From Escherichia phage SECphi27, in the sequence record LT961732: DNA of 51,811 nt; one strand, 5' to 3'. Position numbers and translations under genes: made by a program. Each line of letters starts with the position of its first letter. Position 1 is the stretch's first letter. Below are positions 44,100 to 47,644 of the stretch, piece by piece. The notes under the pieces are model-generated. The model was given only the letters and a program-made list of their open reading frames with translations, made no database searches and was not told the DNA's origin.

Positions 44100-44552
44100 A
44101 TGCACGTTATTACCGGTGAGATCCGAAAAGAGCCAAAAGTAAAGCAAATGCCTAACGGCAGTACGCTATATGTTGTTGAGCTTTCCGAACGATATAAAGA
44201 TCGTGAAGGAAATTGGCAGTATACAAACTATGTGTTTTTCTTTAACGCGAAAACAGACGGCCTGAATGGTTGGTATGCTGAGGCATTCCAGGTAGGCAAG
44301 GTTATTTCTGTTTCCTGCGATACCTTGCGAGTTGAAACGCGAGAATACAACGGAAAGATTTACAGCACCGTGCAGCCTGGCGGATTTGCAAACTTGCTAT
44401 TTAGCCAGAGAGGTGAAAGCCAGCAACAATATCAGCAGCGAACGCAAGGAGGATGGGGGCAACCACAACAGCAACAGCAACAAAATACTCAACAGCAGCC
44501 GCAGCAAAGCAATCAGCCTCCGATTGACTTTGACGACGATATACCATTCTGA
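44100..44552 (+). CDS. ssb: single-stranded DNA-binding protein
   Basis: 150 aa; Gln/Gly-rich linker; acidic C-terminal tail DFDDDIPF. Confidence 0.85.
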   Translation: MHVITGEIRKEPKVKQMPNGSTLYVVELSERYKDREGNWQYTNYVFFFNAKTDGLNGWYAEAFQVGKVISVSCDTLRVETREYNGKIYSTVQPGGFANLLFSQRGESQQQYQQRTQGGWGQPQQQQQQNTQQQPQQSNQPPIDFDDDIPF

Positions 44553-44556
44553 TAAC

Positions 44557-44587
44557 AAAATGCCCCGCATATGCGGGGCATTTTTTA
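44557..44587. terminator. Bidirectional intrinsic terminator between convergent genes
   Basis: tgccccgc-atat-gcggggca flanked by A4 and T6. Confidence 0.8.
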
Positions 44588-44619
44588 GTCTAACGTGGTT
44601 GGTTTGTTTACCAGTGCCG

Positions 44620-45327
44620 CTACAACCGCTTTAGCTCGTCAATTTCTTTTCTCATCTCATCGTTTTCCGCTTTCAGTTTCTTAACGTGGTGAATCAGTGG
44701 AACAGTGAGGCGGTCATACATAACGCCTTCCGCCACCATGCCATTACTTGAAGCAATGGCAGGATCTTCTCCTTCTTGCAGCGGTCGCCAGTGAACGTAC
44801 TCCGGCGCAACCTCTCCAACTTCCTCTGCAATCAGTCCGTACCATCCCCAATCTTTACGGTCGCTTTCACAGGTTGACCGATACCACACAGGACGCATTT
44901 CAAGCATCAGATCCGCATATTCATCAATAACCGATTCTACGCTGCGCTTATAACGAGAAGAGGAAGTGGAGCGTAAAACTTGCGACACTCCAGCATTTGG
45001 ATCAAGCCATAAGTTTGCTGATTGAGCGGTTGTGTTGAGTCTAAACAAATAAAATGCATCGTTACCAGTCAGGGGGTAAAAATTGCCACCATACCTTCCG
45101 CTATCCAACTCGGACGATAGATCATTTTGTTTTAGATACAACTTCAACTTATTGTCAACATCAGTAGTTGATGCTTTTCCTGCAACATCCTGTTTTAGTG
45201 TCGAAACATCACTTTTCAGCTTCGTTATATCACCAGGAATAGTAGCAACATCCTGTTTTAGTGTTGAAACGTCATTTTTAAGATTCGTTATATCACCAGG
45301 AATATTAGTAACTGTAGCCATTTTCAT
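44620..45327 (-). CDS. short tail fibre/spike protein with C-terminal intramolecular chaperone-like domain
   Basis: 235 aa; N-terminal tandem repeat IPGDITxLKxDVSTLKQDVA x2; C-terminal segment resembling peptidase S74 chaperone domain. Confidence 0.55.
   Translation of the reverse strand: MKMATVTNIPGDITNLKNDVSTLKQDVATIPGDITKLKSDVSTLKQDVAGKASTTDVDNKLKLYLKQNDLSSELDSGRYGGNFYPLTGNDAFYLFRLNTTAQSANLWLDPNAGVSQVLRSTSSSRYKRSVESVIDEYADLMLEMRPVWYRSTCESDRKDWGWYGLIAEEVGEVAPEYVHWRPLQEGEDPAIASSNGMVAEGVMYDRLTVPLIHHVKKLKAENDEMRKEIDELKRL
45182..45307. repeat. Tandem direct repeat, 2 x 63 bp, inside short fibre gene
   Basis: Two about 90 percent identical 63-bp units encoding the duplicated N-terminal peptide. 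Confidence 0.8.
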
Positions 45328-45333
45328 AACTCC

Positions 45334-45612
45334 TTAAGCCCATTCTCTAATCGGCTGATCCAACTCAACAACATAATCATTAAAAATTACGGAATCAAAC
45401 TTATTATCAATGATTCGAACATTGACAAAATAACCGTCGTTCTTTTGTGCAATCTCATCGCCATCGTCAGATCGCGCAACTACTGTGTAAGTAGTACCGA
45501 TTACATCGAGCAGGATTGCATTCTGAATATTTTCGTTTTCTTTCCATTCGATTTTTTCAATAAAGGCGGAAAACTCCGCCTTGTCTACAAATTTCAGTGT
45601 TAAATCACGCAT
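45334..45612 (-). CDS. hypothetical protein
   Basis: ORF track 45334-45657; start moved to ATG overlapping stop of upstream fibre gene (TAATG). Confidence 0.5.
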   Translation of the reverse strand: MRDLTLKFVDKAEFSAFIEKIEWKENENIQNAILLDVIGTTYTVVARSDDGDEIAQKNDGYFVNVRIIDNKFDSVIFNDYVVELDQPIREWA

Positions 45613-47605
45613 TATACAATTTCCCCCATTTGGTGATCTGTTAGTGTCTTGTGCCATATGCGGAAGTTTCTTAAGTGTCCGAAAAAGTGACGAGAACCAT
45701 CAGATCCTGCACCACCGAATCTTATTGTCTTACTGGTTGTTGGCTTAAAACCATGCTTAACCTCTGCTTTGTTCCCTTTTACGGAATTTGAAAAGATATA
45801 CGCATAACTCCCGTCGTATACTCCGCCAACTGTTATTGCTCCCTGAGCAGAATCATAATTATTCTTTATTTCAGTGGAAATGTGTACGGTTGGTGACTCG
45901 CCATATCTAGCAATATTCCAGTATGTTGAATGTCTATCGCTTCTTATTGAGCATACCATTGACTCACCAACATCAGGCGCACCAATATCCCATATCCTCG
46001 GCGCTGAATTTGGTAAGGTAGTCCATGTTTTATTTACCTCAAGCAAAAAACTAAGCGGGTGAGATATTAAATTATTAAATGACACGACATTAACTAAGTC
46101 ACTAGCCCTTGTCGCAGGGGTTCCCTCTGTGACGATAAATGACGACGAGCACGCACCACCTTCCACTTGAGGTGTTGAGATGTATATGTAATCATCAACT
46201 TCTGTGCTTCCTCCTTTTCGCGGGGCATATTGCACCATTGCACCAATCATGCTTTCCTGTTCTAATGCTGTGATCGTAGCCTCAAAAAATATCCATTTGC
46301 TTGACTCATCCCTTACCGCTCTTGCTGTTATCCTGTTTGCAGCGCCGCCGGTTTTTTCTATTGACAAATCCTCAAGACCGAGGTAAGCATCACCTAGAAA
46401 GGTATATCCGCTATCATTATAACTTTCAAATCTAAGTCTGCATCTTATGTTTCCTTTACCACCCTTGACTCTGCATGAGATTGTTACTCTTTTTTCTTCA
46501 CCAGTAACATCAAAACCCTTATTACCAGATACTGTAACTATGTTAATAGCCGATGTTTGCCCTACCATTTCTGGCTTCAATGTAAACTTGCCAAATGAAA
46601 AACCGAAATCATCAACTCCTGATTGGTTTAACACCATGTTTGATGACTTGTTCCATTTTGAAGGATTGGTACTATTTATGAGAAGGTTTGTTCTCTGCCC
46701 CTCAATTAGCAAGCCTTCACGTTCAAAACGCGGTTCGTCAATGTCAGCATCAGTAAGAAATCCTGACTTATTAATGTATGTCGCCTTTGATGCTCGCTTA
46801 AAATTTACAACTTTATCCGACGGCATATTGATCACATCATCACCAACTTTTATCTTTTTATACCCAGGCGCAAAACCAGTTATCATATCAAGCGAATCAT
46901 TAAACGGTATCCACACGTCCGGCAACGGTTGCAATAAGTCTTTGTAAGGTTCTGCGGCCTGTTTTGCGTATTCCTCCGCTTGATCTCGCGCGATTTCAGC
47001 ACCTGCCTTTGCGGTGTTCGCAGCATCACGCGCAGTTTCAGCGCCTTCTCTTGCTGTTTCAGCGCCAGCCTTTGCAGTGTTTGCAGCGTCGCGCGCGGAT
47101 TCAGCGGCAGCCTTTGCAGTATCAGCACCTTTCTTGCTATTCGCTGCATTTGTTGCGCTTGTCTTCGCGTTATTCTCGCTGGTTTTAGCTGCCTGCTGGC
47201 TTGCTGCTGCTGCGTCAGCATTTGTCTTTACGTCTTCCTGGATCTTCTGTAGCTTATCCCAATCAAAATCCTTGATGATCTCAATAAATCCAGCAAACTC
47301 CGATTCCTTTCCCTGGTAATAACGCAGCGTTTCCGCTACGTCTTGCGCAAGACCATCAACCGTTAATGAGTCATGAAGCAAGATCAGGTAATTTGTCTTC
47401 TGGACTACCGCGCCGCCAGTAGTAATTGCGCGAATGCTTGTATCGCTAATCACTTCTGTAATCACAGCAGCTTGCAAAGGTTGAGCAAGAAAGAAAATAG
47501 TTGCGCCTGGGCGAATCAAGGTTAATTGCTCACGCCATTTTGTACCGTAACCAGTTACATAACCTTGCGCGTCCATAGACGCTTGGCCTTGTCTGTAAAT
47601 TGCCA
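45612..47605 (-). CDS. tail fibre protein with Ala-rich repeat region
   Basis: About 664 aa; repeats AKAGAETARDAANT; ORF track start 47630 is GTG, ATG 47605 follows AGGAGG RBS. Confidence 0.7.
46970..47230. repeat. Imperfect tandem repeats (about 45 bp units) encoding Ala-rich fibre segment
   Basis: Repeated ttcagcRcc...ctttgcRgt...cgcgc units; also yields long spurious antisense ORFs. Confidence 0.7.
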
Positions 47606-47624
47606 TTTGTAAAATCCTCCTAAA

Positions 47625-47644
47625 TAGCACTTTTTGCTAATGAC
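47625..47644 (+). promoter_or_regulatory. Conserved intergenic motif, inverted class, directly upstream of minus-strand tail fibre RBS
   Basis: Plus strand reads tagcactttttgctaatgac while flanking genes are on minus strand. Confidence 0.5.

What the first reader, a model, noticed from the sequence alone, without database searches (positions are those of the whole stretch)
44620..45327. Short fibre/spike gene with a 2 x 63-bp tandem duplication and a C-terminal autochaperone-like domain
The N-terminus carries two nearly identical 21-aa units (IPGDITNLKNDVSTLKQDVAT and IPGDITKLKSDVSTLKQDVAG) from a recent 63-bp tandem duplication (45182-45307). The C-terminal 110 aa or so resemble the self-cleaving intramolecular chaperone domain of tail spikes (S...K motif region, GLIAEEV). 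Copy-number change in this repeat would alter fibre shaft length and possibly host range.
Basis: partly seen in the sequence, partly recalled or inferred. Interest (0 to 1): 0.4.

Follow-up and report, generated by a model that had tools for sequence, protein, structure and literature searches.

The report
Short self-cleaving accessory tail-fibre gene
This is the last gene of a widespread three-gene side-tail-fibre cassette of an E. coli T1-like phage: a small stalk-and-tip protein that folds with, and then probably cuts off, its own C-terminal chaperone domain; the 63-bp duplication is a common length variant, and the kind of gene is already known.

Summary

The interpretation needs three corrections.
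- The duplication is not recent or private. At least 11 related Warwickvirus phages share the 2-unit allele. Others have 1 unit, or 1 unit plus one heptad.
- The protein has no anchor domain. It is always the third gene of a cassette (fibre with lectin-like end, 92-aa protein, this gene). I found the cassette in all 8 contexts examined, including lambdoid prophages, and a prophage allele in 806 of 5,426 complete E. coli genomes.
- In this window a 1-nt deletion (A4 to A3, 44630-44632) removes the last 14 residues (AVVAALVNKPTTLD) of the IMC, which are replaced by Arg-Leu.

The gene is knocked out in at least 13 of 34 related isolates, while its two partner genes stay intact. That argues against an obligate trans-chaperone role. 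It is an ordinary kind of gene with modest interest.

The parts
44620..45321 (-). CDS as it stands in this window (233 aa from the conserved start): coiled-coil stalk, fibre tip, S74 chaperone domain
   Evidence: ORF. The start was fixed by the alignment of 21 alleles.
45330..45335 (-). Shine-Dalgarno AAGGAG, 8 nt upstream of ATG 45321
   Evidence: Read from the sequence. Conserved in all 21 alleles.
45241..45303 (-). Repeat unit 1 (IPGDITNLKNDVSTLKQDVAT, aa 7-27), three heptads
45178..45240 (-). Repeat unit 2 (IPGDITKLKSDVSTLKQDVAG, aa 28-48), three heptads
44965..45177 (-). Linker and distal tip (aa 49-119). Homologous to the last ~75 aa before the cleavage site of long E. coli prophage side tail fibres.
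   Evidence: (P0233 and P0234 match query aa 48-228 or 65-228 at 55-60% identity). AF2 confidence is low here.
44962..44964 (-). The predicted scissile bond is T119|S120.
   Evidence: Invariant in 73 sequences. Same T|S....K arrangement as T5 pb1 Thr1263-Ser1264/Lys1269.
44947..44949 (-). Codon of the predicted general-base Lys (K125; K127 in ORF numbering)
   Evidence: Invariant in 73 sequences
44620..44964 (-). Intramolecular chaperone (Peptidase_S74) domain, truncated at its C-terminal helix in this window
44630..44632 (-). A3 run that is A4 in all 20 aligned relatives. The 1-nt deletion changes ...ELKAVVAALVNKPTTLD* to ...ELKRL*.
44585..44619 (-). 3' end of the gene as in relatives, out of frame here. 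The ancestral stop is TAA at 44585-44587.
   Evidence: inserting one A restores a 245-aa protein
44561..44580 (.). GC-rich hairpin TGCCCCGC-ATAT-GCGGGGCA flanked by an A run and a T run. Probably a bidirectional terminator shared with the convergent ssb gene.
   Evidence: Read from the sequence. Conserved in the relatives. The consensus scan did not list it.
45334..45612 (-). Cassette partner: 92-aa protein (MRDLT...), whose start overlaps the fibre gene's stop (TAATG)
45612..47606 (-). Cassette partner: lateral/side tail fibre, 664 aa from MAIYR (anchor, Ala-rich shaft, head-spike-fibre domain, Laminin_G_3 end)

Best explanation
The gene encodes a small accessory subunit of the phage's lateral (side) tail-fibre apparatus.

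**Proposed mechanism.**
1. It is translated as the last gene of the leftward fibre operon (fibre, 92-aa protein, this gene).
2. [quoted passage not shown] This sets the register of an upstream beta-rich fibre tip (aa 49-119) and of a trimeric coiled-coil stalk (aa 7-46).
3. The Ser120/Lys125 dyad then cuts the T119|S120 bond. The ~13-kDa chaperone is discarded, leaving a 12.9-kDa chain that forms a trimeric mini-fibre.
4. The mini-fibre is mounted on the virion through its conserved N-terminal peptide (MAT.T.IP.DIT), most likely on the neighbouring fibre or the 92-aa protein. There it adds a second, dispensable binding tip.

**The repeat.** The 63-bp repeat is exactly three heptads. Gain or loss of a unit by unequal recombination changes the stalk by about 3 nm without breaking the heptad register.

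**Shown.** The domain identity, the conserved dyad, the heptad phase, the copy-number polymorphism, the cassette linkage and purifying selection.

**Inferred.** Trimerisation, cleavage, virion attachment and receptor binding.

**This window.** The chaperone's last helix is truncated by a frameshift, so this allele may be impaired.
For: **Domain.**
- Pfam S74 match at threshold.
- S and K five residues apart are invariant in 73 homologues.
- A profile of the family hits the IMC of DT57C LtfA, PDB 8hqz_d, at E 8.9e-8.
- The AF2 model of aa 122-235 has pLDDT 84-98.
- Foldseek's top hit is the MyRF ICA domain 7dc3 (E 1.2e-4, probability 1.0).
- The T|S....K arrangement is the same as in T5 pb1 (PMC4690869).

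**Tip.** Residues 48-228 recur at 55-60% identity as the C-terminal tip plus IMC of 958-1243-aa E. coli prophage side tail fibres.

**Stalk.**
- Hydrophobic residues keep an unbroken 4-3 spacing from I7 to V46, across the unit junction.
- AF2 predicts one helix over ORF residues 11-49.

**A functional gene rather than debris.**
- It has its own SD and ATG.
- dN/dS is 0.27 for the mature part and 0.125 for the IMC among 12 full-length alleles (11 intact relatives plus the window's own 3'-frameshifted allele).

**Cassette.**
- The trio of fibre, ~90-aa protein and this gene is present in all 8 contexts examined. These are two Drexlerviridae genera, a 60-kb phage contig, a phage with a phage_tail_N-type fibre, and three lambdoid prophages where it lies after J-lom-stf.
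- A prophage allele occurs in 806 of 5,426 complete E. coli genomes.

**Precedent for two-protein lateral fibres.**
- DT57C LtfA/LtfB (PMC10713586).
- BASEL IrisVonRoten, which has a proximal fibre with a galectin-like domain plus a distal IMC fibre (PMC11990801).
Against: - There is no experimental evidence here or in the papers searched that this protein is in the virion, is cleaved, or binds a receptor.
- The AF2 monomer gives low confidence (pLDDT 46-70) for aa 50-121, so no fibre-tip fold is demonstrated.
- No anchor domain is present, and no fusion protein was found that links the N-terminal motif to a longer fibre. The attachment site is therefore a guess.
- The gene is disrupted in at least 13 of 34 related isolates, and its 3' end is frameshifted here. 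It is dispensable in the laboratory, and this copy may be inactive.
- The Pfam score is only 0.8 bits above the threshold.
Confidence: 0.62

Rival explanations
1. It is a trans-acting assembly chaperone for the neighbouring lateral tail fibre, as implied by the database names 'putative lateral tail fiber chaperone' and 'chaperone of endosialidase'. On this view the S74 domain helps the 664-aa fibre trimerise and the protein is not part of the virion.
For: - It occupies the position that tfa has after stf in lambda-like prophages.
- The neighbouring fibre has neither an IMC nor a Tfa of its own.
- Relatives are annotated this way.
Against: - S74 domains act in cis on the polypeptide they are attached to and need the upstream fold to cleave (PMC4690869).
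- The protein keeps its own fibre tip and an invariant cleavage dyad.
- The gene is knocked out by 10 distinct mutations in relatives. The fibre gene (about 2 kb) and the 92-aa gene are intact in all 21 loci checked, and are annotated intact in 3 more.
- If all 10 events were neutral and hit targets by size, the chance that all fell in this gene is about (0.70/2.95)^10, or 6e-7. The fibre is therefore kept under selection without this protein.
- There is no match to Tfa-type chaperone families.
Confidence: 0.08
2. It is a leftover 3' fragment of an ancestral long fibre gene, cut off when a new lectin-type fibre end was recombined in. On this view it has no function of its own and is decaying.
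For: - Residues 48-228 are the C-terminal module of long prophage fibres.
- PHROG 3299 places the protein at positions 1147-1384 of a 1385-column profile.
- Knock-outs are frequent in isolates, and this window has its own frameshift.
Against: - The same short architecture, with a conserved N-terminal peptide, SD and ATG, is kept in 8 diverged contexts at 56-65% identity.
- It is present in hundreds of E. coli genomes.
- dN/dS is 0.13-0.27.
- Length changes in the stalk are multiples of 21 nt in the intact alleles.
- The knock-outs are all different and young. None is shared deeply, which fits recent loss rather than old decay.
Confidence: 0.07
3. It is a fibritin-like whisker or fibre-positioning element. 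On this view the trimeric coiled coil holds, retracts or helps attach the lateral fibres, as T4 Wac does, rather than binding a host receptor itself.
For: - The mature part is mostly coiled coil with a very small distal domain.
- There are weak coiled-coil similarities to fibritin, Lpp and the P22 needle.
- It is dispensable in the laboratory.
- It is more conserved across cassettes (56-65%) than the fibre's distal part (36-64%).
Against: - The distal 70 aa are homologous to the receptor-distal tip of bona fide side tail fibres.
- There is no foldon and no significant match to fibritin (E 0.35).
- The protein travels with the fibre's distal half as a cassette between phages with different anchors. 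That pattern is typical of host-range modules.
Confidence: 0.13

Closest known systems
[quoted passage not shown]
   Same: - C-terminal S74 chaperone with a Thr|Ser scissile bond and a Lys five residues on.
- The tip lies immediately upstream of the cleavage site.
- The chaperone ends in a helical coiled coil.
   Different: - pb1 is 1,396 aa, with its own anchor and long shaft, and is a single-protein fibre.
- Here the protein is 233-245 aa, has no anchor, and is encoded after a separate fibre gene.
- No direct sequence hit to pb1 itself was obtained. The hit was to the related DT57C LtfA.
Branched or two-protein lateral fibres: DT57C LtfA/LtfB (PMC4728585, PMC10713586) and BASEL IrisVonRoten Gp22-24 (PMC11990801)
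   Same: - A second, separately encoded IMC-bearing fibre protein is thought to hang on a proximal fibre rather than on the tail.
- The proximal fibre can carry a lectin-like (galectin/ConA-type) domain.
   Different: - Those distal proteins are large, with full receptor-binding domains.
- This one would mature to only 119 aa.
- An extra conserved 92-aa protein sits between the two genes.
- Attachment is not shown here.
K1F endosialidase C-terminal intramolecular chaperone domain (PDB 3GW6) and GA-1 neck appendage IMC (3GUD); eukaryotic MyRF ICA domain (7DC3)
   Different: Those domains sit behind tailspike beta-helices or a transcription factor. Sequence identity is only 11-28%.
Single-chain Drexlerviridae lateral fibre of JakobBernoulli (Bas07 Gp36): coiled coil, T5-like tip, IMC (PMC11990801)
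   Same: - Same phage family.
- Same order of coiled coil, tip and IMC.
   Different: Gp36 carries the N-terminal virion anchor on the same polypeptide. Here the anchor is on a different protein, whose own end is a lectin-like domain.
Lambda stf-tfa locus
   Same: - Same genomic slot in lambdoid prophages (J, lom, stf, then helper genes).
- Laboratory loss of side-fibre function is known from lambda PaPa (my own knowledge: Hendrix and Duda 1992).
   Different: - There is no Tfa-family protein here.
- The helper genes are a 92-aa protein of unknown fold family and this S74 protein.

Membership tests
Peptidase S74 / intramolecular chaperone auto-processing domain (Pfam PF13884) | Sequence match to the family model above its curated threshold | tested here: met
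   - 22.8 bits against a cut-off of 22.0, E 1.1e-4, full model coverage 1-57/58. This is marginal.
- A family profile hits the DT57C LtfA IMC at E 8.9e-8.
- Most homologues carry precomputed PF13884.
Peptidase S74 / intramolecular chaperone auto-processing domain (Pfam PF13884) | Catalytic Ser-Lys dyad, with Lys five residues after the Ser, at the N-terminal edge of the domain | tested here: met
   S122 and K127 (ORF numbering) are invariant in 73 sequences, and T121 is nearly invariant. The arrangement is the same as Thr1263-Ser1264...Lys1269 of T5 pb1.
Peptidase S74 / intramolecular chaperone auto-processing domain (Pfam PF13884) | Fold of the solved chaperone domains (mixed alpha/beta part followed by a long C-terminal helix) | tested here: met
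   - AF2 pLDDT is 84-98 for the domain.
- Foldseek hits 7dc3 at E 1.2e-4.
- The model is a monomer, so the trimeric arrangement was not modelled.
Peptidase S74 / intramolecular chaperone auto-processing domain (Pfam PF13884) | C-terminal position behind a trimeric fibre or spike segment | tested here: met
   The domain is the C-terminal half. Upstream lie a heptad coiled coil and a segment homologous to side-tail-fibre tips.
Peptidase S74 / intramolecular chaperone auto-processing domain (Pfam PF13884) | Autoproteolytic release after folding | not testable with these tools
   This needs protein expression of wild type against S120A and K125A. In this window the last 14 residues of the domain are also lost through a frameshift.
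Stand-alone phage tail fibre or tailspike | N-terminal domain that anchors the protein to the tail or baseplate | tested here: not met
   Only about 6 residues precede the coiled coil. No anchor family matched in Pfam, PHROGs or NCBIfam. Only a conserved peptide, MAT.T.IP.DIT, is present.
Stand-alone phage tail fibre or tailspike | Trimeric fibrous shaft and distal receptor-binding domain | tested here: inconclusive
   The heptad stalk and the homology to fibre tips are present. AF2 confidence for aa 50-121 is low, and no multimer model was possible.
Tfa / gpU-type tail fibre assembly chaperones | Sequence membership in the Tfa families | tested here: not met
   No such family appears among the Pfam, PHROG or NCBIfam matches.
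T4 fibritin (Wac)-like whiskers | Coiled coil ending in a foldon; sequence or fold similarity to fibritin | tested here: not met
   There is only a non-significant coiled-coil match to 1avy (E 0.35). The C-terminal domain is S74, not a foldon.

The most novel reading that the evidence does not exclude
The fibre, 92-aa protein and mini-fibre trio is an uncharacterised portable host-range cassette. In this reading the short S74 protein is a detachable second binding tip, docked by its conserved N-terminal peptide onto the lectin-type fibre, perhaps through the 92-aa protein. This tip would be actively counter-selected on rough laboratory hosts. That would explain why at least 13 of 34 isolates, and this window, carry independent null or truncated alleles while the partner genes stay intact. 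The gene would then be a natural on/off and length-tunable adsorption module, present in roughly 15% of E. coli genomes.
Probability: 0.3. Interest if true: 0.55.

Novelty: new member of a known kind. Interest (0 to 1): 0.3.

Why it matters
The domain and the general design (coiled coil, tip, self-cleaving chaperone) are textbook for phage fibres, and relatives of this gene are already annotated. The finding itself is therefore ordinary.

Three results are useful for people who engineer or predict phage host range:
- **Cassette membership.** The short gene belongs to a conserved three-gene cassette shared by lytic T1-like phages and lambdoid prophages. None of the three proteins has been characterised.
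- **Stalk length.** The stalk changes in heptad multiples by recombination between the repeat units.
- **Selective loss.** Sequenced isolates lose this gene far more often than its neighbours. Published genomes, including this one, may therefore not represent the wild-type adsorption apparatus.

Tried and rejected
- **Single-sequence search of PDB sequences.** It returned only coiled-coil noise (P22 needle, Lpp, fibritin) and an antibody. The profile search was needed.
- **IMG/VR scan.** It gave only 3 loci, so I used GenBank phages and encoding-contig look-ups instead.
- **Search for a fusion protein.** I looked for a long fibre that carries the N-terminal MATVTNIPGDIT motif among 1.84 billion representatives and found none. 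The one multi-stretch hit (P0270) is an unrelated heptad-repeat protein.
- **Promoter/terminator scan.** Counts were no higher than in shuffles, and the scan did not list the obvious hairpin at 44561-44580, which I read directly from the sequence.
- **'Recent duplication'.** Rejected, because the 2-unit allele is shared widely and the units are 86-90% identical.
- **'Vestigial fragment' and 'trans chaperone'.** Both were considered and rated low (see rival explanations).

Full report
**What the window is.** The region around the finding is 97.7% identical to Escherichia phage JLBYU01 and about 97% identical to phages tonn and ityhuna (Drexlerviridae, Tempevirinae, Warwickvirus, relatives of T1). 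On the minus strand the gene order is primase, lateral tail fibre (45612-47606), a 92-aa ORF (45334-45612), and the gene in question. That gene converges on ssb (44100-44552) across a GC-rich hairpin at 44561-44580.

**Check of the observation.**
- The ORF 44620..45327(-) exists and reads as quoted.
- TRF finds a period-63 repeat at 45182-45312 with 2.1 copies, 89% matches and score 213, the top repeat in the window.
- In the protein register the two units (45241-45303 and 45178-45240) share 54/63 nt, with 3 replacement and 4 synonymous differences.
- In the best nucleotide register 57/63 positions match, against a maximum of 33/63 in 50 shuffles. The repeat is real.

Two coordinates need correcting.
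- The first ATG (45325-45327) is AGG in 15 of 20 relatives. The conserved start is ATG 45319-45321, 8 nt downstream of AAGGAG.
- The stop at 44620 is caused by a 1-nt deletion in an A4 run (44630-44632), seen in none of 20 aligned relatives. It changes ...ELKAVVAALVNKPTTLD* into ...ELKRL*. Putting the A back gives a 245-aa protein that ends at 44585-44587. I cannot tell whether this is a real mutation or a sequencing error.

**The C-terminal domain.**
- Pfam Peptidase_S74 matches aa 122-178 just above threshold (22.8 against 22.0 bits).
- In an alignment of 73 homologues, S122 and K127 (ORF numbering; S120 and K125 from the real start) are invariant and T121 is nearly so. This is the Thr|Ser....Lys arrangement shown to be the scissile bond and catalytic pair in T5 pb1 (Thr1263-Ser1264, Lys1269; PMC4690869).
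- A profile of the family hits the chaperone end of DT57C LtfA (PDB 8hqz_d) at E 8.9e-8.
- An AlphaFold2 model built on the 73-sequence alignment has pLDDT 84-98 across this domain.
- Foldseek's best hit is the MyRF ICA domain 7dc3 (E 1.2e-4).

Membership of the S74 intramolecular-chaperone family is therefore met on sequence, motif, position and fold. Cleavage itself cannot be tested here.

**The N-terminal half.**
- From I7 to V46 the hydrophobic residues follow an unbroken 4-3-4-3 spacing that runs straight across the junction of the two units.
- AF2 predicts a single helix over ORF residues 11-49.
- One unit is 21 aa, or three heptads, about 3.1 nm of coiled coil.
- Residues 49-119 are predicted with low confidence.
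- An exhaustive HMMER search shows that residues 48-228 recur, at 55-60% identity, as the extreme C-terminus (tip plus chaperone) of 958-1243-aa lambda-type side tail fibres of E. coli prophages.

The protein is thus a fibre tip and its chaperone, with a short coiled coil in place of the long shaft and no anchor domain. The only conserved N-terminal feature is the peptide MAT.T.IP.DIT. The mature chain would be 119 aa (12.9 kDa) and the released chaperone 13.3 kDa in this allele.

**The repeat across isolates.** A tblastn search of GenBank phages finds the gene in 39 Warwickvirus-type records, 34 of them distinct, in three length classes:
- 245 aa (two units): XY3, SLUR29, tunus, JLBYU01, AV105, tuinn, EC195, EC125, orkinos, JLBYU19 and others.
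- 231 aa (one unit plus one extra heptad).
- 224 aa (one unit).

The two-unit allele is therefore a common polymorphism and not a recent private event.
- The one-unit alleles are mosaics of unit 1 and unit 2, with at least three different crossover points (tonn; swan01; tinuso, JK16 and brachmannus).
- JLBYU16 has a perfect 21-bp duplication.
- KMB46 has a perfect, out-of-frame 50-bp duplication.

The region is a recombination and slippage hot spot, and the surviving in-frame variants are multiples of 21 nt.

**Context: a three-gene cassette.** In every context examined the short gene follows a long fibre gene and a ~90-aa gene. The contexts are this window, Hanrivervirus KarlJaspers, two metagenomic Drexlerviridae-like contigs, a 60-kb phage contig, a phage whose fibre has a phage_tail_N anchor, and three lambdoid prophages where the order is J, lom, stf, orf~90, this gene.
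- Identities to the window proteins are 36-64% for the distal ~540 aa of the fibre, 31-67% for the small protein, and 56-65% for the S74 protein. The fibres' N-terminal anchors differ by phage type.
- The fibre's distal part contains an NCBIfam 'phage head spike fiber' domain (E 3e-18) and a Laminin_G_3-like end.
- The 92-aa protein family has 215 clusters, all annotated as hypothetical. Its confident AF2 model (pLDDT 92) has no informative structural neighbour.
- A prophage allele of the small gene plus the S74 gene occurs in 806 of 5,426 complete E. coli genomes. PGAP calls the S74 gene 'tail fiber domain-containing protein'.

**Selection.** Among 12 full-length alleles (11 intact relatives plus the window's own 3'-frameshifted allele), dN/dS is 0.27 for the mature part and 0.125 for the chaperone. 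Yet at least 13 of the 34 distinct records carry null alleles. With the window's own deletion this makes 10 distinct mutation types:
- C5 to C6 (orkinos, AV105, JLBYU19)
- +CC (JLBYU10)
- -A (brachmannus)
- -G (ityhuna)
- 50-bp duplication (KMB46)
- GAG to TAG (tuinn)
- GAA to TAA (JLBYU01)
- TAC to TAA (EC195, EC125, JLBYU07)
- GGA to TGA (Phunderstruck)
- A4 to A3 (this window)

In the same genomes the 2-kb fibre gene and the 92-aa gene are intact. This holds in all 21 loci I could check and in the annotation of three more. If the ten events were neutral hits distributed by target size, the chance that all fall in this 0.7-kb gene is about 6e-7 (my calculation). The count of independent events is a minimum estimate, and homopolymer errors may contribute to the frameshifts.

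I conclude that the gene is maintained in nature but is dispensable, perhaps costly, under isolation and propagation conditions, whereas the fibre does not depend on it. This argues against the database label 'lateral tail fiber chaperone' in the sense of an obligate trans-acting chaperone. It resembles the loss of side tail fibres in laboratory lambda (my own knowledge, not tested here).

**Most likely mechanism.**
1. Three chains are assembled from the C-terminus by the chaperone domain.
2. This sets the register of the tip and the coiled coil.
3. S120/K125 cut T119|S120.
4. The mature trimer, a ~6-nm stalk with a small tip, joins the lateral-fibre apparatus through its N-terminal peptide as a second, accessory binding element.

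Two-protein lateral fibres of this logic are described for DT57C (LtfA/LtfB) and predicted for BASEL phages, including a proximal fibre with a lectin-like domain. Attachment, cleavage and receptor binding are inferences.

**Rival explanations.**
- An obligate trans chaperone is disfavoured by the selective knock-outs.
- A decaying remnant is disfavoured by conservation across 8 contexts and low dN/dS.
- A fibritin-like positioning element is possible and not excluded.

**Verdict.** The duplication is an old, shared length polymorphism, the gene is one part of a known-but-uncharacterised cassette, and this particular copy has a truncated chaperone. It is a new member of a known kind, of modest interest.

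Noticed in passing
window 44630-44632 (and 44585-44619): A 1-nt deletion in an A4 run, unique to this window among 21 aligned alleles, truncates the chaperone domain by 14 residues (replaced by Arg-Leu). It could be a real mutation or a homopolymer sequencing error.
   Followed up: partly
related loci L010-L015, L019, L022, L034-L036, L001: The short S74 gene is null in at least 13 of 34 related phage records through many different mutations, while the adjacent fibre and 92-aa genes are always intact. Two mutations recur in different allele backgrounds: C5 to C6 in orkinos, AV105 and JLBYU19, and TAC to TAA at PEY|VHW in EC195/EC125 and JLBYU07. The cause (selection on laboratory hosts, hot spots or recombination) is unexplained.
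   Followed up: partly
window 46996-47142: The fibre gene's Ala-rich shaft has its own periodic repeats (periods 63, 42 and 21 bp; 67-80% matches). Relatives annotate a repeat_region there, and fibre length varies from 646 to 664 aa among 21 alleles.
   Followed up: no
window 45334-45612: The conserved 92-aa protein between the fibre gene and the S74 gene has a confident predicted alpha/beta fold. It has no informative structural or family match, yet it is present in a very large number of E. coli prophages. The ORF listing extends it to 107 aa, but the conserved start is MRDLT at 45612, overlapping the fibre gene's stop (TAATG).
   Followed up: partly
L022 (phage vB-Eco-KMB46), about 22 nt into the gene: A perfect 50-bp tandem duplication sits inside the repeat region, out of frame, and the gene is left unannotated in that record. 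It is either a very recent slippage event or an assembly artefact.
   Followed up: partly
window 47606-47630: The mechanical ORF for the fibre starts at GTG 47630 (672 aa). All relatives conserve and annotate the start at MAIYR (ATG 47606, 664 aa).
   Followed up: partly
window 44561-44580: An 8-bp GC-rich hairpin flanked by an A run and a T run lies between the convergent ssb and S74 genes and looks like a bidirectional terminator. The consensus terminator scan did not report it.
   Followed up: no
L026 5716-6009 and L027 5688-5981; L025 4836-6660: In lambdoid prophages a further conserved ~97-aa ORF follows the S74 gene. In Hanrivervirus KarlJaspers four extra genes, one annotated as a sugar-binding protein, lie between it and ssb. 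The Warwickvirus window lacks these.
   Followed up: no
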